A stretch of DNA of 64,000 bases. Source: Candidatus Limnocylindrales bacterium (GTDB lineage Bacteria > Chloroflexota > Limnocylindria > Limnocylindrales > CSP1-4). The stretch is taken from positions 4,843-68,842 of the forward strand of contig JBBQRZ010000014.1 of assembly GCA_038214255.1 (NCBI GenBank), in the 5' to 3' direction. Numbering within the stretch: position 1 is the stretch's first letter; the number at the start of each line of letters is the position of its first letter. The notes beneath the pieces are model-generated. The model worked only from the letters and a program-made list of their open reading frames with translations, was not told the DNA's origin and searched no databases. Shown piece after piece: positions 12,382 to 21,048 of this stretch. A program made the position numbers and the translations under genes.

Positions 12382-13005
12382 ATGAGCCGGCGCCATCACA
12401 ACCGGCCACACCACGGCCACTATCGCCACGAAGGTCCACGTCATGTCGGGCCCGAGCCGCACCCAGCGACGGCGTCGGAGACGGCCGTTCCCGAACACGA
12501 TCGCGCGCATGATGCGCTGACCGCGGCGCCGCCTCGGCCGCCGATGCCGGCGAGCCCTGTGCCGCCGGTGGTTCCGTCGTCGGAGCCGCTTGTCGCCCAG
12601 GGCCCGACATCTGCGCCAATGCCGATGGCGACGCCGATTCCGCCGCCGGTGATGCCATCGCCCGTGATGCCGTCGCCGATGATGCCGTCGCCGAACCGCC
12701 AGATGAACGGCCACGGCGAGCGTCCCAACGGCTGCACCGCGCCCCAGCTGCGGCGTTTCATCAAGAGCCGTCCATACGTGCCCATGCATGAGCTGCGACG
12801 TCGGTTCGGGATCGACGGCGTCGAGGACGACGTGACCCAGGTCGCGCTCGAGGGCACCAACGTCTATGTCGGGCTGCCCGGACGCGAGGGCGCCCTGCTC
12901 GGCGAGCTGTTGCGTGGCGGCGAGATCGGCTACGAGCTCTCGCTCGACCCGCGGTCACCGATCGTCATCGGCGTCTATCCGATGCGGCCCGTCCCGCGCG
13001 CCTGA
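12382..13005 (+). CDS. Hypothetical protein: His/Arg-rich N-terminus, Pro/Met-rich linker, compact C-terminal domain
   Basis: MSRRHHNRPHHGHYRHE...; the C-terminal ~90 aa (QLRRFIKSRPYVPMHELRRRFGI...GYELSLDP...GVYPMR) has normal codon usage. Confidence 0.7.
   Translation: MSRRHHNRPHHGHYRHEGPRHVGPEPHPATASETAVPEHDRAHDALTAAPPRPPMPASPVPPVVPSSEPLVAQGPTSAPMPMATPIPPPVMPSPVMPSPMMPSPNRQMNGHGERPNGCTAPQLRRFIKSRPYVPMHELRRRFGIDGVEDDVTQVALEGTNVYVGLPGREGALLGELLRGGEIGYELSLDPRSPIVIGVYPMRPVPRA
12646..12693 (+). repeat. 15-nt tandem repeat (about 3 copies) encoding P(V/M)MPS
   Basis: ccggtgatgccatcg / cccgtgatgccgtcg / ccgatgatgccgtcg. Confidence 0.8.
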
Positions 13006-13085
13006 CCCCTCCGGGCGGCCGTGCTCGCGCTCCAACGACATCGCATTCCCGCCATCGCCGGGTCGCGTCCGCGTACGATGGGCCC

Positions 13086-13805
13086 ATGGTCGGGAAGAAC
13101 GGCAGCGCGATCACGGCGCGCGCCGCGCTCCGCAGCTGCCGCCTCTTCGCGGACCTCGACGACCCAACGCTCGAGCTCGTCGCCGCGGCGATGCGGGCCC
13201 GGCGATTCCGACGCTCCGAGGTCATCTTCCACGCCGGCGACCCCGGTGATGCCCTGTTCGTGGTGACCGTCGGCCGGGTGAAGATCACCCTGCCGTCCGA
13301 TGAGGGCACGGAGCCGGCGATCCTGACGACGATCGGACCCGGCGGCTTCTTCGGGGAGCTGGCGCTGCTCGACGGCGTGGCCCGGTCCGCCACGGCGATC
13401 GCCCTCGTTGGTGTGGAGGCCCAGGTCCTGCAGCGCGACGCCTTCGAGCGTCTGCTCGACGAGCAGCCACGCCTGCGCCACGTGTTCCTGGTCGCCCTGG
13501 CCGGCGAGATCCGACGACTCACGGGCCAGGTGGAAGACTTCCACTTCATCGATCTGCCGGGTCGGCTCGCCCGTCACCTGTTGCGCTCGCTCGACGGCGG
13601 CGATCGCCCATCCGCCCTCCCGGCCGGCGAGCATCCCCTGCCGTGGCCATATACCCGGTCCGAGCTGGCCGGGATGATCGGTGGATCGCGTCAGTCGGTG
13701 AACCGGCTGCTCGCCGATCTTGTCGGCGAGGGGCTGTTGCGGTTCGAGGGCGACACACTCGTCATCCCCGACGCCGCGCGACTCTCTGCGGCGGTTCGAC
13801 GATGA
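13086..13805 (+). CDS. Crp/Fnr family transcriptional regulator
   Basis: cNMP domain (IFHAGDPGD, FFGELALLDGVARSA) plus HTH (TRSELAGMIGGSRQSVNRLL). Confidence 0.92.
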   Translation: MVGKNGSAITARAALRSCRLFADLDDPTLELVAAAMRARRFRRSEVIFHAGDPGDALFVVTVGRVKITLPSDEGTEPAILTTIGPGGFFGELALLDGVARSATAIALVGVEAQVLQRDAFERLLDEQPRLRHVFLVALAGEIRRLTGQVEDFHFIDLPGRLARHLLRSLDGGDRPSALPAGEHPLPWPYTRSELAGMIGGSRQSVNRLLADLVGEGLLRFEGDTLVIPDAARLSAAVRR

Positions 13806-14617
13806 CGGCGCCACGCCCGCCCGACGGCAGTAGTGCGGCCGCGAGCCTGGCCGCCCTCGCCCGTCGGCTCAGTGCGGCCCTGCAGCTCTCCGAGCCGATG
13901 CGCGACGACCAGCTGTCGGTCGCCGTCGACGTCGCGGTCGTCGTCCTCGATGCCAAGGCGGCCTCGATCGCGCTCCATGACCCGGCCGCCGATCGCCTGC
14001 GCTTCGTCGCGGCTGCTGGGCCGGCGGCAGGCGGGGTCCTCGGGCTCGAGATCGAGAGCGGGGTCGGCATCGCCGGCTACGCGTTCACGACCGGTCAGCC
14101 ACTCGCGGTGGCCGACGTCACGAGCGATCCGCGCTTCGACTCTCGCGTGGCCGAGGCGACGGGCTACGTGCCCCGCTCGATCCTCGCCACGCCCCTCATC
14201 GACGACCTGGGCACCGTCGGCGTGCTCGAGGTGCTCGACCGGAGCGGCGACGGTGGCTTCTCGATGCGCGATCTCGACGTTGCCGGAGCCATTGCTCGAG
14301 GGGCGACGGCGGCGGTGCGGGCCGGTCGCGCCGAGCGCGACGCCGGGGCCCTCCTCCGAAGGGCGCTCGTCGCGACCGCCCGGAGCGTTGACGACGAGAC
14401 GCTCGACGAGGCGGCGATCGAGGAGCTCGTGCGCGACGCCGTCGAGCCGCTCACCGACGATCCGGACGATCCCACGTGGCGCCTCGCCGAACGCATCGCC
14501 CGCCTGCGTACGGTCGATCCCGACAGCGTCGAACTGGCGGTGGAGTGGCTCGATGCGCTGTTACGCCGCGGAAACCGCGGACCAGGCCATGGGGCGCGGG
14601 TCGCGGACGGCCGATGA
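13802..14617 (+). CDS. Stand-alone GAF domain protein
   Basis: GIAGYAFTTGQPLAVADVTSDPRF...TGYVPRSILATP...GVLEVLDR, followed by a helical tail. ATGA overlaps on both sides. Confidence 0.85.
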   Translation: MTAPRPPDGSSAAASLAALARRLSAALQLSEPMRDDQLSVAVDVAVVVLDAKAASIALHDPAADRLRFVAAAGPAAGGVLGLEIESGVGIAGYAFTTGQPLAVADVTSDPRFDSRVAEATGYVPRSILATPLIDDLGTVGVLEVLDRSGDGGFSMRDLDVAGAIARGATAAVRAGRAERDAGALLRRALVATARSVDDETLDEAAIEELVRDAVEPLTDDPDDPTWRLAERIARLRTVDPDSVELAVEWLDALLRRGNRGPGHGARVADGR

Positions 14618-15429
14618 CGACGTCGTTGCCCGCCTGGAGCGAGGCGTTCGCCGGGCCGGCGCGACCCGCCCTCGAACGCGTCCTGCCGCTCGGCCCGATG
14701 GATCGTCGCGCTGTGTTCGGCGACGCCGATGGCACGGGCGTGCTGGTCGTCATCGTCGATTCGGGCGTTGACGGCGAGAATCCCGCCGTGGGCGGCCGGC
14801 TCCGCCAGCGGCTTCGCGTCGAGCTCGACGAGGAGGAGGCTCGCGTCGTTGTCGATCCGGAGGCCTCGGACCTCGTCGGTCACGGGACGGCCTGCGCCGG
14901 CATCGTCCACGCCCTCGCGCCCGCCGCTGAGCTCGTGTCCCTGCGGGTCCTGGGTTCGGACAACCGGGGCAAGGGCCGGGCGGTCGCGGCGGCCGTGGAC
15001 TGGGCTATCGAGGCCGAGGCGCAGGTCGTGAATCTCAGCCTCTCATCGCGCAGCGAGTCGATGTTCGCCACCTTCCACGAGCTGGCCGACCGGGCCTACT
15101 TCGCGAACACGCTGCTCGTGTGCGCCGCGAACAACATCCCGGGACCGTCGTACCCGTCGACGTTCGCGGCCGTGATCTCCGTCGCGGCGCATGACGTCGC
15201 CGATCCGTGGACCTGGTACTACAACCCCTCGCCACCGGTCGAGTTCGGGGCGTATGGCGTCGACGTCGATGTTGCCTGGCGCGACGGCGGACGGATCCGC
15301 GCCACCGGCAACTCGTTCGCCGCGCCGCACATGGCCGGGCTGGCGGCCCTCCTGCGCTCGCGCCATCCCGCCGCGAGCCCGTTCGAGATCAAGGCACTCC
15401 TGGCCGCGACCGCCAACGTTACCGGGTAG
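14614..15429 (+). CDS. Minimal S8 (subtilisin-like) serine peptidase, no signal peptide
   Basis: Catalytic triad in IVDSG, GHGTACAG and GNSFAAP; oxyanion Asn in CAANN; 271 aa. Confidence 0.9.
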   Translation: MTTSLPAWSEAFAGPARPALERVLPLGPMDRRAVFGDADGTGVLVVIVDSGVDGENPAVGGRLRQRLRVELDEEEARVVVDPEASDLVGHGTACAGIVHALAPAAELVSLRVLGSDNRGKGRAVAAAVDWAIEAEAQVVNLSLSSRSESMFATFHELADRAYFANTLLVCAANNIPGPSYPSTFAAVISVAAHDVADPWTWYYNPSPPVEFGAYGVDVDVAWRDGGRIRATGNSFAAPHMAGLAALLRSRHPAASPFEIKALLAATANVTG

Positions 15430-15436
15430 AAACGGA

Positions 15437-15464
15437 AAGACCGCCCGGCGGGGCGGGCGGTCTT
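15437..15464. terminator. Hairpin between the convergent S8 and peptide genes; probable bidirectional terminator
   Basis: AAGACCGCCCG (15437-15447) pairs with CGGGCGGTCTT (15454-15464), flanked by A/T-richer bases. Confidence 0.7.
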
Positions 15465-15493
15465 CCGAGGAGGTGGATCGCTGGCTGTGTGGA

Positions 15494-15709
15494 TCAGCGC
15501 GCGTGACCCTCGACGTCGTCTTCGTCGGACGGAACGGCTTCGCCGCCGTGGCCCGGGCTACGCGGCATGATCCCGTTCGGCGGAGGGGTGATCGGCAAGC
15601 CGTGGCCCTCGACGTCCTCGGTGTCCGTGGGTCCGGCGCCGCCCATCGACCGCTGCTGCTCAGGCTCCACGAGCCCCTCTCGCGGGAGCCGCATGCGCTT
15701 CTTGTCCAT
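15494..15709 (-). CDS. 71-aa acidic/Pro-rich peptide with two DVEGH motifs; candidate precursor peptide
   Basis: GAAGGGGA RBS 7 nt before ATG 15709. DVEGH is encoded at 15602-15616 and 15503-15517. Confidence 0.75.
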   Translation of the reverse strand: MDKKRMRLPREGLVEPEQQRSMGGAGPTDTEDVEGHGLPITPPPNGIMPRSPGHGGEAVPSDEDDVEGHAR

Positions 15710-15808
15710 GGTGCTGTCCCCTTCCCGCGCCATCGCGTCTAGAGCTGGATCTGCCTCGACTCTACTGGGACCGACCCGCCGGTGGCGACCTGCGGTCCGA
15801 CGCCCGCC

Positions 15809-15826
15809 GTGTCATCGCCGAGACAC
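15809..15826. promoter_or_regulatory. Crp/Fnr-family (CooA-type) palindromic site upstream of the peptide gene
   Basis: GTGTCA-TCGCCG-AGACAC, one mismatch from TGTCA-N6-TGACA. A TAGAGT -10-like hexamer lies on the minus strand at 15764-15759. Confidence 0.5.
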
Positions 15827-15829
15827 CCG

Positions 15830-17658
15830 TCACGATACGCCTTCGCTCTGGGGCGCCCGCGGCATAGCCTCCACGGGCGGGCGGGGCGTCCGCAGGTCGC
15901 GCAACGATTCCTGGTCCACGCCCGCCAGCCGCGGCAGGTCGGCGGCCTCGGTCCGCATGAGCCGGCTCGTCAGCGTCGAGAAGACGAGCCGCCGGATCTC
16001 GGGGACGGCCATCGTCGCGCGCAGCGCCTCGGCCGGCACCTCGAGCAGCGTCGCGTCGGTGTCGGCGACCACGTCGGCCGTGCGCGGGCTCCCGGTCAGG
16101 GCCGCGATCTCCCCGAAGAAGTCGCCGGCGCCCATGGTCGAGAGGCTGCGGAAGGTGTCCTCGCTCGGGACGCCGGCCGTGGCCGTGCCATCGAGGATGA
16201 AGAACGCGTTCGACGCGGGGTCACCATGCTCCACGATCCGGGTCCCGGCCGGGACCTCGCGGACCTGGGCCTCGCGGATGAACGCCGAGCGCTGCTCGGT
16301 CGTCAGGCCGGCAAAGGTCCCCAGGCGTGCCGCGAGCAGGTCGAAGTCGGCGAGCGTCGCCGGCCGCACGGGGAAGCCGCCGAGGGCGGGCACGCCCGCC
16401 GCCGCGCGCAGCCGGGCGGTCGCCGCCCGCCACGTCGCAAGTGAGAGGCCGGGCGCGACGAGCACGAACGCGGCCGACACGAACAGGAGCGACGAGGCGG
16501 CCACGATCATGAGCCGGATCGGCAGGATGTCGGCGAGGCCGGCGCCGGCCATGCCGAACAGGAAGATGACGTCGCGCATGACGTAGAAGGCCGAGACGAC
16601 CCGGCCGCGCATCTCGCGCGGCGTGTTCCGTTGCAACAAGACGGAGCGGGCGACCGACGCGGGCGAATTGAAGAAGCCGAGATCGTCACCAGGACGATCG
16701 CGAAGGAGATCCCCGGCGACGCCGCGTAGAGGATCCCGGAGACCCCCATCCCGCACATCGCGATGAAGATCCATGCCGGTTCCGGCAGCCGGCTCGAGAA
16801 GCGGGCCATGAAGAACGAACCGATGACGAAGCCGATCGAGGTCAGGCCTTCCTGGAGCCCGTATTGGAACTCGGTGGCGCCGAGCACCTTGATCGCGAAC
16901 GGCAGCAGCAGCACGTTCCACAGCCCGAACGCGAAGAACATGAACGAGCCGACGATGAACAGCGAGCGCAGGATCGGGGTGCCGAACAGCGTCCCGAGGC
17001 CGGATCGCAGGTTCTCGACGACGACGGCGACCGAGGCGTGGTCCTCGGGCGTCGGCAGGGCGATCTTGCCGATCAGCCCGATGCAAACGGCCGAGAAGAC
17101 GAACGTCAGCGCGTCGATGACGAAGGCGAGGCGCAGGTCGATGCTCGCGAGGAAGCCGGCTCCGGCGAACCCGATTGCGGTCGAGCCGAACGCGGCGATC
17201 GAGAGGAACGAATTGGCCGCGGCGAGCTCCTCGTCGCTCGCGAGCTCCGGGATGATGCTGTCGTGGGCCGGGTCGAAGAACTGCCGGACGCCGGCGTTGA
17301 TGAGGATGAGGGCGTACAGCCCGACGACGGCGATCTGCTCGATCCCGATGACGATCGCGATGAGGGACACCGCGACCGCCTGGACCAGGCAGGTGGCGAT
17401 CATGATCTTCTTGCGGTCGTGCCGGTCCACGAATACCCCGGCGAGCAGGCCCACGATCAGGCTCGGGACGGCAGTGGCCATGAGCGTCAGCCCGACCGCT
17501 AGGGCCGACCCGGTCTGGCGATAGACGAAGATGCCTGCGGCAAGATCGGTCAGCGCTGATCCCGCCGTCGAGACAAGCTGGGCAAGCCAGAGGAGGGAGA
17601 AGTCTCGGCGGTGGAAGACCGCGAACATCGATGGGGCAGGCGCGACCGCTGCGGTCAT
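15830..17658 (-). CDS. MFS transporter fused to a C-terminal cyclic-nucleotide-binding domain; 1-nt frameshift at ~16677 in this sequence
   Basis: ORF 16507..17658 gives the MFS N-part (DFSLLWLAQLVS, GVFVDRHDRKK). Adding one base at CC 16677-16678 joins it to the 15830 frame (GFFNSP...LLQRNTPREMRGRV, then GDFFGEIAALTGSPRTADV). Restored length 609 aa. GAGGAG RBS. Confidence 0.85.
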
Positions 17659-17699
17659 CGGGCTCCTCAGGGCGACAGGGGAGCGAGGCTGGCCGGAGT

Positions 17700-18257
17700 C
17701 TAGCCCGCGCGTCTGCCGACCGCGCGACCTTCGCGCAGCAGCAGAGCGGCCTTGAGGGCGAGGCGCTCCTCACCGTCGGCCCACCCGTCGCTGCCGTATC
17801 CGCCGAGCGTGCCGTCGCCGGCGATGACCCGGTGGCACGGGATGAGCAGCGTGATCGGATTGCGCCCGAGCGCTCCCCCGACGGCGCGGGCCGCCCGCGG
17901 CGCTCCGATCCGTCGCGCGATCCCGCCATAGCTCGCGGTCTCCCCCCAACCGAGCTCGCGGACCGCGCCGAGGACGCGCTGGTCCCAGGCCGGCCGGTCG
18001 GCCAGGTCCACCTCGATCGCGGAGGAATCGGCCGGCTCGCCGTGGAGCAGCGCCTCGAGGACCGGGAGCGCCCCCTCGAGCCGAGCCGCGGCGGCCCCTT
18101 GGTCCATCACCCTGCCTGCCAGCCGCGCTCGGGTGCGCTGGAGGAATGCCGCCTCGGTCGTCAACCACTCCGCGGCGACGATCCCGCGTTCGGTGGCGGC
18201 CACGTGATACGGCCCGAATGGACCGGCCAGCGTGCGCGCCGCGACATCGTCATCCAT
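17700..18257 (-). CDS. ogt: Methylated-DNA--protein-cysteine methyltransferase
   Basis: [26 protein letters not shown] active site, GTLGGY. Confidence 0.9.
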
Positions 18258-18303
18258 GCCGGTCAAGTGTGCATCGGCCCCGGTCCGAACGGGCGCGGCT
18301 GAT

Positions 18304-18320
18304 ATACTCCCTAGGAGTAT
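18304..18320. promoter_or_regulatory. CsoR-like operator overlapping the copA -10 box and start codon
   Basis: ATACTCC-CTA-GGAGTAT, perfect 7-bp arms resembling the ATACC...GGTAT CsoR boxes. TATACT at 18303-18308, ATG at 18319. Confidence 0.65.
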
Positions 18321-21048
18321 GCCAACCAACACGACCGACACGACCGAAACCCGCCAACCCACGGCCGAGCTGCTGCTGCCCATCGAGGGCATGACCTGCG
18401 CCTCGTGCGTTAACCGGATCGAGCGATTTCTCCGCAAGACCCCGGGGGTCGAGGACGCGATTGTCAACCTCGCCACCGAGATGGCGACGATCCGCTACGT
18501 CCCGGACCTCGCGGACCGGGCCGATCTCGTCGGGGCGGTGGAGTCGGCCGGCTACGACGTCCGGCCGGAGCCAGACCGGATCGGCGGCGCCCCGCCGCTC
18601 AGCCTGGTCGAGGAGCTCGCCTCCGAGGACATCGCTCGCGATCGCGAGGCCCGGGCGCTCCTGCGTGAGGCCGTCGCCTCGATCGCCATCGCGCTCGCGA
18701 TCATGGTCGCGATGTTCATTCCCCAGACGCGCGTGCCGATGGAGACGATCAACTGGCTGGCCCTCGTCCCTGCGACCTTCGTCCAGGTCTGGGCGGGGCG
18801 CCGCTTCTATCGCGCCGCCTGGCGCGCGGCCCGCCACGGAACGACGAACATGGACACCCTCGTGGCCGTCGGCACTTCGGCAGCCTGGCTGTACAGCGTC
18901 GGCGTGACGCTGGTCCCCGCGGCCATCCACGAAGCCGGGCTCCATCCCGAGACCTACTTCGATTCGTCCACGATCATCATCGGGCTCGTCCTGCTCGGGC
19001 GGTGGCTCGAGGCGCGGGCCAAGGGCCGCACGACCGGGGCGATCCGCCGGCTCGTCGGCCTCGCGGCGACGTCGGCCCGCCGGGTCGTCGACGGACGGGA
19101 CGAGGACGTCCCGCTCGAGTCGATCATCGTCGGGGACCTCGTGCGCGTGCGGCCCGGGGACAAGGTGCCGGTCGACGGGATCGTCCTCGAGGGCGCCTCG
19201 GCCGTCGACGAATCGATGCTGACCGGCGAGCCCATCCCGGTCGAGAAGTCGATCGGCGACCGCGTCATCGGCGCCACGATCAACCGAACCGGCTCGTTCG
19301 TCATGCGCACGACGGCGGTCGGCCGCGACACCGCGCTGGCGCGGATCGTCGATCTCGTCGGGCGCGCCCAGGGCAGCAAGGCGCCGATCCAGCGGCTCGC
19401 CGACCGCATCGCCGGGGTCTTCGTCCCGATCGTGCTCGTCGTCGCGGCGACGACATTCCTCATCTGGTTACTGTTCGGTCCCGAGCCGCGCTTCACGCTC
19501 GCCCTGACCTCGTTCATCGCCGTCGTGGTGATCGCCTGCCCGTGTGCGATGGGCCTGGCGACGCCGACGGCGATCATGGTCGCGACGGGCCGCGGCGCCG
19601 AAGCCGGCATCCTGTTCAAAGGCGGCGAAGCGCTCGAGATCGCGCACCGCGTGGATGCGGTCGTCTTCGACAAGACCGGCACGCTGACGCTCGGGCGGCC
19701 GACGCTCGTCGACATCGCGGCGGCGCCGGGCTTCACCACGGTCGAAGTCCTTGATCTCGCGGCAAGTGTCGAACGCGCCAGCGAGCACCCGCTCGGCACC
19801 GCGATCCTGGCCCGGGCTAATCGCGATGAGCTCGGGTTCCGCCAGGTCGACGAATTCTCGGCCGTGATCGGGGGCGGGGTCGAGGCGGTAGTCGCGGGAG
19901 CCGGTGGCCCTTGGCGCGTCGTCGTCGGCAACCGGCGCCTGCTCGCGGTGCGGGGCGTGGACCTCACGCCCCTGGACCCCGCGATCGAGGGCGCCGGGTC
20001 GGCGGGGCGAACGCTGGCCTTCGTCGCGATCGACGGGCGGGCGGCGGGATTGCTCGCGATCAGCGATCCGGTCAAGGCCGAGTCGAGTGCGGCGGTCCGC
20101 GAGCTCAGGGCGGCCGGGATCGAGGTCTGGCTCGTCACGGGCGACGCCCGTGTCACGGCGGAGGCCGTCGCGAAGCAGGTCGGGATCCCGTCCCACCAGG
20201 TCCTCGCCGAGGTCCTGCCCGAGGGCAAGTCGGCCATCGTCGAGCGGCTCCAGGCTCGCGGTCGAACCGTGGCCGTCGTCGGTGACGGCATCAACGACGC
20301 GCCGGCCCTCGCCCGAGCCGATCTCGGCATCGCGATCGGGACGGGCGCCGACGTCGCGGTCGAGGCAGCCGATGTCACGCTCGTCGGTGGCGATCCGCGC
20401 GGCGTCCCGGCGGCGATCGGCCTGTCGCGGGCGACGCTCTCGATCATCCGCCAGAACCTCGTCTGGGCGTTCGGGTACAACGTCGTGCTGATCCCGGTCG
20501 CGATGGGCGTGCTCGTCCCGACGTTCGGGATCGCGCTCAACCCGGCCATGGCAGCGGGCGCGATGGCGCTGTCGTCGGTGTCCGTCGTCGCCAATTCCCT
20601 GCGCCTGCGGTCCTACGACGCGCGGCCGGACGCGGCTCACCGTGTCGCCCGACGAGGCGTGTTCGGGCATCTCCGCGAGGCCTGGTTCCTCGGCGCGATC
20701 GCCGTCGCCTCGCTCGGGGCGGCCGGGGGCGTGCTGGCGGCCGACCGCGCGATCGATGCGGGCGCGGACCACCACGCGGTGGTGGCTCGCAACCTCCGCT
20801 TCGCGCCGGCCGACCTCCACGTGCGCGCCGGCGACATCGTCGTCGTCCAGTTCAGCAACGAGGACCCGACGTTCCACGACTGGCGCGTCGTCGGGCTCGC
20901 GAACGTGGATGCTGGGGCGCGACCGGGACAGACCCAACGGGTCCGGTTCCGCGCCGACACGCCAGGCACCTACCGGATCGAGTGCTCGGTCCCGGGCCAC
21001 GCCGAGTCCGGGATGACCGGCACGCTCGTCGTGGACCCGCCAGACTGA
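18319..21048 (+). CDS. copA: Cu(I)-translocating P1B-type ATPase with N-terminal HMA domain and fused C-terminal cupredoxin domain
   Basis: [33 protein letters not shown] and MALSS motifs. After these come an extra TM and a cupredoxin (HDW...[11 protein letters not shown]). Confidence 0.93.

What the first reader, a model, noticed from the sequence alone, without database searches (positions are those of the whole stretch)
13086..17658. Candidate undescribed cyclic-nucleotide-controlled peptide processing/export system: Crp-GAF-S8 protease converging on a DVEGH-repeat peptide and an MFS-cNMP fusion
Seen: (1) Crp/Fnr, a stand-alone GAF protein and a minimal S8 protease are chained by ATGA overlaps (13802, 14614). 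(2) They converge through one shared hairpin on a 71-aa peptide with two DVEGH motifs. (3) The peptide lies directly downstream of an MFS permease carrying a cNMP-binding domain. Both cNMP domains keep the GE...R(S/T)A phosphate-binding cassette, and the GAF has the DPRF...TGY...SIL signature of PDE/cyclase-type GAFs. Established: subtilisin-like proteases process RiPP precursors at repeated recognition motifs (PatA/PatG in cyanobactins; LanP removes lanthipeptide leaders). Inference: one second messenger could control transcription (Crp), protease activity (GAF partner) and export (MFS) of a signal or effector peptide. No nucleotide cyclase other than the GGDEF protein, and no tailoring enzyme, is in the window. 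I do not recall a characterised system with this architecture.
Basis: partly seen in the sequence, partly recalled or inferred. Interest (0 to 1): 0.9.

Follow-up and report, generated by a model that had tools for sequence, protein, structure and literature searches.

The report
cNMP-linked protease and DVEGH-cassette peptide module
A regulator, a sensor-partnered protease, a transporter and small proteins built from variable cassettes that each end in the same five residues form a gene module kept together across two bacterial phyla, which I found described nowhere and which can be tested in cultured soil bacteria.

Summary
In this assembly the MFS-cNMP gene is broken by a 1-nt deletion.

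- **Family level:** Crp, GAF and S8 lie together in 40 of 40 loci from 36 genera. DVEGH-motif ORFs lie beside them in 36 of 40, at varying positions.
- **Wider range:** the same parts recur, in shuffled order, in two further Chloroflexota families and in Actinomycetota. These include the isolates Nocardioides sp. Root240 and two Geodermatophilus strains.
- **The small proteins:** they are tandem cassettes. Cassette sequence differs between lineages, but each ends in (D/E)(D/E)D-(V/T/A)-E-G-(H/Q).
- **Operator:** a CRP-type palindrome, TGTC-N8-GACA, occurs 153 times in 151 loci, against 0-6 for control palindromes. Of these, 107 sit upstream of cassette genes.
- **Protease and sensor:** the S8 catalytic residues are invariant. 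The GAF domain's nearest solved relatives bind cAMP or cGMP.
- **Cyclase:** a class III cyclase is often adjacent.

No Pfam or NCBIfam family covers the peptides, and four literature searches found nothing relevant. Cleavage, ligand identity and export are all inferred, not shown.

Best reading (about 0.45): a cNMP-controlled module that expresses multi-cassette precursors, cuts them and possibly exports the products.

The parts
13086..13805 (+). Crp/Fnr-family regulator (239 aa): cNMP-binding domain plus HTH_Crp_2
   Evidence: Pfam. It scores far below the E. coli CRP equivalog cut-off in NCBIfam (82.9 against 266). Present in 40 of 40 family loci.
13802..14617 (+). Stand-alone GAF protein (271 aa): GAF domain at about residues 37-172, then a C-terminal helical region
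   Evidence: Pfam. AlphaFold2 model with mean pLDDT 82.7. Nearest structures are 4mcw, 5w10 (cAMP-bound Lcd1 GAF), 1ykd and PDE5/2/10 GAFs. The ATGA overlap with Crp is confirmed.
14614..15429 (+). Minimal S8 subtilisin-like protease (271 aa). No N-terminal hydrophobic signal segment is visible by eye.
   Evidence: Pfam. D49, H90, S234 and N174 are invariant in 43 orthologues. Below the NCBIfam cut-offs for QhpE, mycosin and PatA. The ATGA overlap with GAF is confirmed.
15433..15467 (.). GC-rich hairpin between the convergent S8 and peptide genes
   Evidence: -35.4 kcal/mol, z = -2.99. One search gives a terminator-like call on the minus strand only.
15494..15709 (-). 71-aa DVEGH protein. Motif 1 (DVEGH) is at 15602-15616 and motif 2 at 15503-15517.
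   Evidence: ribosome-binding site and ATG; 176 homologues; conserved LPKEGLVEPE, DVEGHGLPxTxPP, PGHGGE, DDVEGH; site coordinates. No Pfam or NCBIfam family.
15810..15825 (.). CRP/FNR-type palindromic operator TGTC-N8-GACA. Its centre is about 108 nt upstream of the peptide ATG.
   Evidence: It is the only such site in the window. It is conserved in all 12 aligned loci of the genus. The same palindrome is enriched in 151 loci and positioned upstream of cassette genes.
15830..17658 (-). MFS_3 (EntS-like) permease fused to a C-terminal cNMP-binding domain (about 16010-16261). It is interrupted here by a 1-nt deletion near 16675.
   Evidence: Pfam. Frame break. Intact single ORFs in relatives. 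The same MFS_3+cNMP architecture occurs in the Nocardioides and Geodermatophilus loci.

Best explanation
This is one copy of a conserved module linked to cyclic nucleotides.

Core parts:
- a Crp-family regulator
- one to three 'cassette' proteins, whose units each end in (D/E)(D/E)D-(V/T/A)-E-G-(H/Q)
- a GAF protein always paired with a small cytoplasmic S8 protease
- an MFS_3 permease carrying a cNMP-binding domain
- often, in addition, a class III cyclase

Proposed mechanism:
1. A cyclase raises cAMP or cGMP.
2. Crp binds the TGTC-N8-GACA operator and switches on the cassette-protein gene.
3. The GAF partner couples the same or a related ligand to S8 activity.
4. The S8 cuts at the invariant motif, most simply after the H/Q. 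That places Val/Thr at P4 and Gly at P2. The cut releases the variable cassettes and any C-terminal tail.
5. The MFS-cNMP protein may export the products.

What is shown: gene linkage, domain identities, intact catalytic residues, and the operator's conservation and position.

What is inferred: every binding, cleavage and transport step, and the identity of the ligand.

My odds for the sub-claims:

| Sub-claim | Odds |
|---|---|
| It is a functional module | about 0.9 |
| Crp acts through the operator on the cassette genes | about 0.7 |
| The S8 cleaves the cassette proteins at the motif | about 0.5 |
| The products leave through the MFS | about 0.3 |
For: Linkage within the family:
- Crp, GAF and S8 lie together in 40 of 40 loci from 36 genera.
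- 36 of 40 also carry DVEGH or DVEGH-like ORFs within about 7 kb. They lie downstream of S8, upstream of Crp, or between Crp and GAF.
- These loci hold 123 DVEGH pentamers, against 1 for each of five permuted pentamers.

Genome-wide specificity:
- The DDVEGH-coding pattern gives 252 sites in 141 family genomes. The reversed control gives 2.
- Of the 150 sites listed, 107 lie within 5 kb of the S8 gene.
- 235 of the 252 sites are in genomes that have the S8.

Beyond the family:
- Families f4 and f18 of Chloroflexota keep the same parts in other orders, including S8 placed before GAF.
- A scan seeded only with a tandem-DVEGH DNA pattern returned 47 Actinomycetota and 32 Chloroflexota loci. An S8 orthologue lies inside the 8-kb stretch in 31 of 47 and 22 of 32.
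- The isolates Nocardioides sp. Root240 and two Geodermatophilus strains carry the module.
- In a draw of Actinomycetota seeded with the S8, GAF is adjacent in 19 of 20 loci. Cassette ORFs are present in at least 8 of 20.

Operator:
- TGTC-N8-GACA occurs 153 times in 1.6 Mb of loci, against 0-6 for six control palindromes.
- 107 of these lie within 450 nt upstream of the first motif codon.

Protease and sensor:
- The catalytic triad and the oxyanion Asn are invariant in 43 orthologues.
- The GAF domain's nearest solved relatives are cAMP/cGMP binders.
- 10 of 38 longer S8 relatives carry GAF and S8 in one polypeptide. 17 of 38 carry a protein kinase domain instead.

Cyclase:
- A cyclase domain lies inside 31 of 151 loci.
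- The window's own genome has 13 cyclase domains.

Motif behaviour:
- The synonymous codon variety at the motif shows selection on the protein.
- The last motif abuts unrelated C-terminal modules: a basic helical tail, a short tail ending in GE, or a membrane segment. This is what a processing site would do.
- H and Q interchange at the last position. That fits a P1 residue better than a metal ligand.
Against: - No experiment or expression data exists for any part.
- 4 of 40 family loci show no DVEGH ORF by the regular expression. One of these, L117, has a DTEGQ variant.
- 12 of 20 S8-seeded Actinomycetota loci show no recognised cassette ORF within the stretch fetched.
- 34 of the 150 listed DDVEGH sites lie elsewhere in S8-positive genomes.
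- The 14 of 80 motif-seeded loci with no module part include second copies and chance frames.
- Cassettes of 11-40 residues are large for an MFS substrate. This caveat comes from general knowledge.
- The window's MFS gene is frameshifted.
- No tailoring enzyme is conserved.
- The GAF+S8 single polypeptides are all singletons. They could be indel artefacts at the ATGA overlap.
- The operator is not enriched genome-wide in this genome: 14 sites, within the range of the controls.
- The Crp recognition helix varies (Q, P or E at one position) while the operator stays the same. The pairing of this Crp with this operator is therefore inferred from co-occurrence alone.
- Related genomes are not independent samples.
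Confidence: 0.45

Rival explanations
1. This reading is regulated turnover rather than maturation. The cassette proteins are disordered intracellular effectors, for example charge-patterned stress, nucleic-acid-binding or ion-binding proteins. The GAF-S8 pair destroys them when the messenger changes. Nothing is exported, and the MFS moves an unrelated small molecule.
For: - The peptide is predicted to be disordered: pLDDT was under 50 in the complex runs (one search states this about the partner's own fold).
- Cassettes are hydrophilic and low in complexity, with basic and then acidic stretches.
- Some f18 cassettes are His-rich.
- None of the cassette proteins I read shows a signal peptide.
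- The MFS_3 family is known for small-molecule export such as enterobactin. The NCBIfam EntS hit scores 50.6 bits, below its cut-off.
Against: - Turnover alone does not explain an invariant five-residue punctuation between hypervariable cassettes.
- It does not explain why the last motif abuts distinct conserved C-terminal modules.
- It does not explain why an MFS-cNMP fusion stays linked across phyla.
Confidence: 0.25
2. This reading is a shared regulon only. Crp co-regulates the cassette genes, GAF-S8 and the MFS, but the S8 acts on other substrates. The cassette proteins work unprocessed.
For: - Operator sites also occur upstream of Crp (9), the MFS (5) and GAF (3).
- They occur as double sites upstream of GAF-S8 operons in Actinomycetota.
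- Some S8-GAF loci lack a recognised cassette ORF.
Against: - The cassette genes are in the same operon as GAF-S8 in several lineages. They lie between Crp and GAF in f4 and some f1 genera, and directly after S8 in many Actinomycetota.
- 107 of the 150 listed DDVEGH sites are within 5 kb of the S8 gene.
Confidence: 0.15
3. In this reading the cassette proteins are pseudo-substrates, inhibitors or trans-acting folding partners of the S8, which lacks a propeptide. Each motif occupies the active site in the way a product would.
For: - The S8 has only about 35-40 residues before the catalytic Asp and no I9-type propeptide domain.
- Subtilisin propeptides end in a segment that sits in the active site. 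This point is recalled, not tested here.
Against: - Hypervariable cassette sequences and copy numbers of 1 to 12 are not expected of a chaperone or inhibitor.
- The GAF protein is the constant partner: 40 of 40 and 19 of 20 loci.
Confidence: 0.08
4. In this reading the small ORF is a chance or non-coding repeat, and the neighbourhood is inherited synteny with no functional meaning.
For: High-GC genomes give many spurious ORFs. Within one genus, synteny alone is expected.
Against: - The protein motifs are conserved while codon use varies synonymously.
- A ribosome-binding site precedes the start.
- There are 176 and 126 homologues for the two query types.
- Linkage is retained through gene-order shuffling across two phyla.
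- The controls give 1-2 hits against 123-252.
Confidence: 0.01

Closest known systems
Cyanobactin pathways (multi-core PatE precursor cut by the S8 proteases PatA and PatG)
   Same: A precursor made of repeated cassettes, each flanked by a conserved recognition sequence. A subtilisin-fold protease is encoded beside it. Cassette sequence is free to vary.
   Different: - The S8 scores 30.5 bits against the PatA/PatG model, whose cut-off is 421.
- No heterocyclase, macrocyclase insert or other tailoring gene is conserved.
- The protease is minimal, cytoplasmic and paired with a GAF protein.
- The motif, the host phyla and the cNMP regulators all differ.
- Details of the cyanobactin system are recalled.
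Yeast alpha-factor with Kex2, and fungal repeated precursors processed by Kex2
   Same: Tandem copies of a short peptide are separated by an invariant site for an S8-family protease. This is the closest match in working logic.
   Different: That system is eukaryotic, works in the secretory pathway and uses dibasic sites. No homology beyond the S8 fold is claimed. This comparison is recalled, not tested.
QhpE, the small subtilisin-like protease that trims the QhpC peptide of quinohemoprotein amine dehydrogenase
   Same: It is the best-scoring NCBIfam model for the S8 (114.8 bits). It is a small S8 without a prodomain that acts on a peptide substrate inside the cell (the function is recalled).
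   Different: The score is below the 165-bit cut-off. No Qhp partner genes are among the conserved neighbours.
Myxococcus PopC/PopD (a subtilisin-like protease held by a co-encoded partner, which cleaves the C-signal precursor)
   Same: A protease is kept in check by the product of the adjacent gene and released by a starvation messenger, and it then cuts a signal precursor. This is recalled.
   Different: PopC is secreted, PopD is not a GAF protein, and the messenger is (p)ppGpp. None of this was tested here.
CRP and NtcA operators (TGTGA-N6-TCACA and GTA-N8-TAC)
   Same: The operator is a 16-bp palindrome with the same half-site spacing, TGTN-N8-NACA. It lies upstream of the regulated genes, beside a Crp-family gene.
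   Different: The fourth base is C/G rather than G/C (CRP) or A/T (NtcA). Binding by this Crp is untested. The consensus sequences of the known operators are recalled.
TIGR03896, a cNMP-binding 'bacteriocin-type transport-associated protein'
   Same: It provides a precedent for a cyclic-nucleotide-binding domain associated with peptide export. The cNMP domain of the MFS hits it at 40.2 bits.
   Different: The score is below the 161-bit cut-off. Here the domain is fused to an MFS_3 permease, not associated with an ABC exporter.

Membership tests
Crp/Fnr transcription factor family | An N-terminal cNMP-binding domain plus a C-terminal Crp-type helix-turn-helix | tested here: met
   PF00027 scores 78.6 bits and PF13545 scores 49.6 bits, both over their cut-offs.
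E. coli-type CRP (cAMP receptor protein equivalog) | A score over the NF008732 cut-off | tested here: not met
   82.9 bits against a cut-off of 266.
Peptidase S8 (subtilases) | The Pfam domain, plus the Asp-His-Ser triad and the oxyanion Asn | tested here: met
   PF00082 scores 102.6 bits. D49, H90, S234 and N174 are invariant in 43 orthologues.
PatA/PatG cyanobactin proteases | A score over the TIGR03895 cut-off, with cyanobactin tailoring genes adjacent | tested here: not met
   30.5 bits against a cut-off of 421.05. No further conserved neighbour family was found in Actinomycetota loci.
QhpE | A score over the NF049966 cut-off | tested here: not met
   114.8 bits against a cut-off of 165.
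Type VII secretion mycosin | A score over the TIGR03921 cut-off | tested here: not met
   102.7 bits against a cut-off of 278.75.
Cyclic-nucleotide-binding GAF domains (PDE/cyclase type) | The GAF fold, with closest relatives being cNMP-binding GAFs | tested here: met
   GAF_2 scores 49.8 bits. The best PDB sequence hits are 4mcw, 5w10, PDE5, PDE10, PDE2 and CyaB2. Foldseek's top hits are 4mcw, 5w10 (cAMP-bound) and 1ykd.
Cyclic-nucleotide-binding GAF domains (PDE/cyclase type) | The domain actually binds cAMP or cGMP | not testable with these tools
   Needs a binding assay.
MFS_3 (EntS-like) exporters | The Pfam MFS_3 domain | tested here: met
   PF05977 scores 75 bits against a cut-off of 27. 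The EntS equivalog scores 50.6 against a cut-off of 324, which is not met.
RiPP biosynthetic gene clusters | A conserved enzyme for post-translational modification beside the precursor | tested here: not met
   Reference ORFs from three Actinomycetota loci were compared with 47 loci. Only Crp, GAF, S8, MFS-cNMP and, in 10 loci, a cyclase-AAA_16 protein recur.
Known anti-phage defence systems (PADLOC) | A match to a system-specific protein model | tested here: not met
   Only domain-level hits were found: the cNMP domain to Pycsar effector models at 47 bits or less, and a generic 'subtilase' at 56.9 bits.

The most novel reading that the evidence does not exclude
Soil Actinomycetota and Chloroflexota share an undescribed system, gated by a second messenger, for releasing peptides. 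One cyclic nucleotide would license three steps at once:
- transcription, through Crp at TGTC-N8-GACA
- proteolytic release, through the GAF-partnered cytoplasmic S8
- export, through the MFS-cNMP fusion

The products would be lineage-specific, unmodified linear peptides cut from multi-cassette precursors at a universal tag, D-(V/T/A)-E-G-(H/Q). This would be a new class of ribosomal peptide signals or effectors. Its hypervariable cassettes suggest recognition of kin or of competitors.
Probability: 0.3. Interest if true: 0.9.

Novelty: new variant of a known kind. Interest (0 to 1): 0.8.

Why it matters
If the reading is right, three things follow:
- It defines a large, unannotated family of small proteins and a universal processing tag. 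The family has hundreds of members in public data, all 'hypothetical'.
- It gives a bacterial counterpart to eukaryotic multi-copy prohormone processing.
- It offers a rare case in which one second messenger could act on transcription, proteolysis and transport of the same product.

The module also explains why Crp, GAF and cNMP-MFS genes cluster in these phyla. Because it occurs in cultured Nocardioides and Geodermatophilus strains, every inferred step can be tested with ordinary genetics and biochemistry.

Tried and rejected
Complex prediction of the S8 (alignment A2) with the 71-aa peptide (alignment A1): the scores were 0.11 and 0.09 against a mark of 0.32. The verdict was 'no answer', so it counts neither for nor against.

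RNA evidence: no RNA holder was listed for 13086-17658.

Literature, from search listings only (titles and starts of abstracts; no paper was read):
- 'DVEGH' anywhere in the text gave 11 papers, none about bacteria or this motif.
- 'Limnocylindria' plus 'precursor peptide' gave 0 papers.
- Terms for multicore precursors, subtilisin-like proteases, tandem repeats, RiPPs and Chloroflexi gave 8 papers, none relevant.
- Subtilisin, GAF domain, cyclic nucleotide-binding, major facilitator and gene cluster gave 2 papers, neither relevant.
- Subscription journals and supplementary files were not searched.

Ideas considered and dropped or weakened:
- **Metal binding.** I considered that the motif's His is a metal ligand, or that cleavage creates a copper-binding N-terminus. 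This is weakened because Q replaces H in four Actinomycetota loci.
- **Altered recognition-helix residue.** I considered that one changed residue explains the C in the operator's fourth position. I dropped this because that residue is Q, P or E in different lineages.
- **A large regulon in this genome.** I looked for one and found none. TGTC-N8-GACA has 14 sites, no more than comparable control palindromes.
- **The His/Pro-rich gene at 12382-13005 as a core part.** I rejected this. It recurs only in Chloroflexota loci, 7 of the 80 motif-seeded loci, and it has no Pfam family.
- **A known defence system.** PADLOC gave only domain-level hits.

I replaced it with a smaller comparison of reference ORFs from three loci against 47 Actinomycetota loci.

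The promoter scan found no sigma-70-like site in 12800-18300. I assign no promoter class to the operator.

Full report
**What is in the window.**
- The region lies in a 70% G+C genome of 2.8 Mb in 55 contigs.
- Source names of close homologues place it in Candidatus Limnocylindrales, Chloroflexota.
- Three plus-strand genes are chained by ATGA overlaps:
  - a Crp/Fnr regulator at 13086-13805
  - a stand-alone GAF protein at 13802-14617
  - a 271-aa S8 protease at 14614-15429 (Pfam)
- They converge on a small minus-strand ORF across a GC-rich hairpin at 15433-15467 (-35.4 kcal/mol, z = -2.99). The terminator scan flags this hairpin only for the minus strand.
- The small ORF is best read as 71 aa from ATG 15709, behind a GGAAGGGGA ribosome-binding site. 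It carries EDVEGH and DDVEGH.
- Upstream of it on the same strand lies an MFS_3 permease with a C-terminal cNMP-binding domain.
- In this assembly that gene is split into two frames by a 1-nt deletion near 16675, judged against three intact orthologues.

**The small protein is a real, conserved gene.**
- It has 176 homologues, all unnamed or 'hypothetical'.
- The conserved blocks are LPKEGLVEPE, DVEGHGLPxTxPP, PGHGGE and DDVEGH.
- It has no Pfam or NCBIfam family.
- This particular form is largely genus-specific. A profile of it hits 16 of 27 genomes of the genus. It hits 0 of 16, 0 of 92, 0 of 153 and 0 of 2 genomes in the four other families of the class.

**The neighbourhood is conserved far beyond the genus.**
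- Eleven loci of the genus keep GAF, S8, the peptide and the MFS-cNMP gene in 11 of 11, and Crp in 10 of 11.
- The S8 orthologue occurs in 87 of 141 family genomes, in 38 of 49 genera.
- I fetched 40 loci from 36 genera. Of these, 38 were seeded by the S8 and 2 by weak peptide matches. All 40 have Crp, GAF and S8 together.
- 36 of the 40 carry ORFs with DVEGH or close variants. A fifth-to-last case, L117, carries a DTEGQ variant.
- These ORFs are mostly tandem arrays of 2 to 12 cassettes. Cassette sequence differs completely between genera, but each cassette ends in (D/E)(D/E)DVEGH.
- Their position varies: convergent downstream of S8, upstream of Crp, or between Crp and GAF on the operon strand.
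- Several classes differ in what follows the last motif:
  - a short tail ending in S(R/K)GE
  - a conserved basic tail of about 40 residues
  - a membrane-anchored domain

**Specificity controls.**
- In the 40 loci, DVEGH occurs 123 times, against once for each of five permuted pentamers.
- A fully degenerate DDVEGH-coding pattern gives 252 sites in 141 family genomes. Read backwards, the pattern gives 2.
- Of the 150 sites listed, 107 lie within 5 kb of the S8 gene, 34 lie elsewhere in S8-positive genomes, and 9 lie in genomes with no S8 hit.
- By genome, the table of S8 presence against motif presence reads 64, 23, 14 and 40. Related genomes are not independent, so I give no weight to its p-value.

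**Other families and another phylum.**
- A phylum-wide draw of 401 genomes found tandem motif clusters in two more Chloroflexota families, f4 (10 of 16 genomes hit) and f18 (10 of 12).
- I fetched 16 regions from that draw.
  - 12 hold tandem cassette ORFs.
  - 9 of those 12 show S8 and GAF beside them.
  - The other 3 are short or cut contigs showing Crp and/or MFS-cNMP.
  - The remaining 4 were single chance matches.
- Gene order differs between families:
  - f4 reads MFS-cNMP, Crp, cassette gene, GAF, S8.
  - f18 reads Crp, cassette gene, then S8 before GAF.
It listed 80 loci: 47 labelled Actinomycetota, 32 Chloroflexota and 1 Kiritimatiellae. Counts inside the 8-kb stretches are:

| Part found | Actinomycetota (of 47) | Chloroflexota (of 32) |
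|---|---|---|
| S8 orthologue (45-70% identity) | 31 | 22 |
| GAF | 30 | 21 |
| Crp | 30 | 24 |
| No module part | 10 | 4 |

- Some of the loci with no module part are second copies or wrong-frame matches.
- Five genomes reached through these loci each have exactly one S8 orthologue. They include Nocardioides sp. Root240 and two Geodermatophilus isolates.
- In all four regions I examined, a cassette ORF lies beside Crp, GAF and S8. In Nocardioides and Geodermatophilus an MFS_3+cNMP fusion is also present.
- Seeding from the S8 instead, 26 of 401 evenly drawn Actinomycetota genomes have the orthologue.
  - GAF is adjacent in 19 of the 20 loci I fetched, in either order. The exception is a 2-kb contig.
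  - Four loci carry cassette ORFs that match the DVEGH expression.
  - Four more carry a DD(T/A)EGQ variant.

**A conserved operator.**
- Aligning the region upstream of the peptide gene in 12 loci of the genus revealed an invariant palindrome, TGTC-N8-GACA.
- The window has one such site, at 15810-15825.
- Across 151 fetched loci (1.6 Mb) the palindrome occurs 153 times, against 0-6 for six control palindromes.
- 107 of the 153 sites lie within 450 nt upstream of the first motif codon of a cassette ORF, in both phyla.
- Most of the rest precede variant cassette ORFs, Crp, the MFS or GAF.
- The spacing matches that of CRP and NtcA sites, whose consensus sequences I recall rather than tested.
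- The site is not enriched across the whole of this genome: 14 sites, within the range of the controls. Its weight therefore comes from its position and its conservation.

**The protease, its partner and the messenger.**
- Asp49, His90, Ser234 and Asn174 are invariant in 43 S8 orthologues.
- The S8 falls below the cut-offs for QhpE (114.8 against 165), mycosin and PatA.
- Its nearest solved relatives are ordinary subtilisins.
- The GAF model is confident over the GAF domain, with mean pLDDT 82.7.
- By sequence and by fold, the GAF domain is closest to GAFs that bind cAMP or cGMP.
- Among 38 longer relatives of the S8:
  - 10 carry GAF and S8 in one chain. All are singletons and could be indel artefacts at the ATGA overlap.
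  - 17 carry a protein kinase domain.
  - 1 carries a cNMP domain.
- This pattern suggests a protease family that takes interchangeable regulatory modules.
- The window's genome has 13 class III cyclase domains, none on this contig.
- A cyclase, usually joined to an AAA_16 region, lies within 31 of 151 fetched loci. That includes 8 of 11 loci of the window's own genus.
- No other gene family recurs with the module in Actinomycetota, so no tailoring enzyme is part of it.

**Interpretation.**
- The linkage, the operator and the domain identities are shown.
- Cleavage at the motif is inferred from four observations:
  - the constant pairing of cassette genes with an active S8
  - the invariant punctuation between free-varying cassettes
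  - the motif abutting unrelated C-terminal modules
  - the H/Q alternation at the last position
- Cutting after H/Q would put Val/Thr at P4 and Gly at P2. That suits the subsite preferences of subtilisins, as I recall them.
- Export by the MFS is the weakest step.
- The rival readings are regulated turnover of intracellular disordered proteins, a shared regulon without a substrate relationship, and pseudo-substrate partners of the S8.

**Novelty.**
- Pfam, NCBIfam and PADLOC hold no model for the cassette proteins or for the module.
- The Atlas clusters of the S8 carry only generic names.
- Four full-text searches returned nothing relevant, judged from listings only.
- The nearest known logic is multi-core precursor processing by S8 proteases. 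The family-membership tests for those systems were not met.

Noticed in passing
window 16670-16680 (minus-strand gene 15830-17658): A 1-nt deletion in a G run splits the MFS_3-cNMP gene into two frames. Orthologues in the genus are intact single ORFs. It is either a pseudogene or an assembly error.
   Followed up: partly
window 12382-13005 (+): A 207-aa protein directly upstream of Crp has a His-rich N-terminus, a Pro-rich middle and a conserved C-terminal domain. It has no Pfam family. It recurs beside the module only in Chloroflexota loci (7 of the 80 motif-seeded loci).
   Followed up: partly
window 18232-21048 (+): A heavy-metal P-type ATPase (HMA, E1-E2 ATPase) carries an unusual C-terminal cupredoxin-like domain. 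It lies two genes from the module, after an Ogt-type methyltransferase at 17700-18476.
   Followed up: no
L127:7305-8771, L129:5599-6456, L091:14292-14792, L197:34-687: A third class of motif protein: DVEGH is followed at once by a conserved segment (A-I/L-S-L/V-R/H-F-P...F-R-R-x-L-L-A-T-G) and a membrane helix. It lies a few kb from the S8 in several families.
   Followed up: no
L115 near 6739 and L178 near 4942: Small proteins preceded by the operator but lacking the motif. Each has a helical segment resembling the class B tail, and then a C-terminal membrane helix.
   Followed up: no
Genus g32 genomes (for example G398:C4:97163-97249 and G436:C3:192325-192414): Pairs of DDVEGH sites 72 nt apart lie on contigs other than the one carrying the S8. 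This is an unlinked cassette gene that is conserved within one genus.
   Followed up: no
P0252-P0272: Relatives of this S8 at 43-52% identity are fused to an N-terminal Ser/Thr protein kinase domain (17 of 38 longer relatives, one labelled Iamia sp.). Their gene neighbourhoods could not be looked up.
   Followed up: no
L273, L279, L281, L284, L272, L207, L157: In Actinomycetota the operator often comes as two copies whose starts are 23-24 nt apart.
   Followed up: no
L093, L105, L138, L198, L028: Runs of N (masked or unassembled bases) fall inside several cassette arrays. Copy numbers of cassettes are therefore lower bounds.
   Followed up: no
G000:C24:241-1461: A tandem double-cyclase ORF sits at the start of a contig in the window's own genome. 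It resembles the double-cyclase/AAA_16 gene that lies next to Crp in relatives of the genus. Here it is not adjacent to the module.
   Followed up: partly
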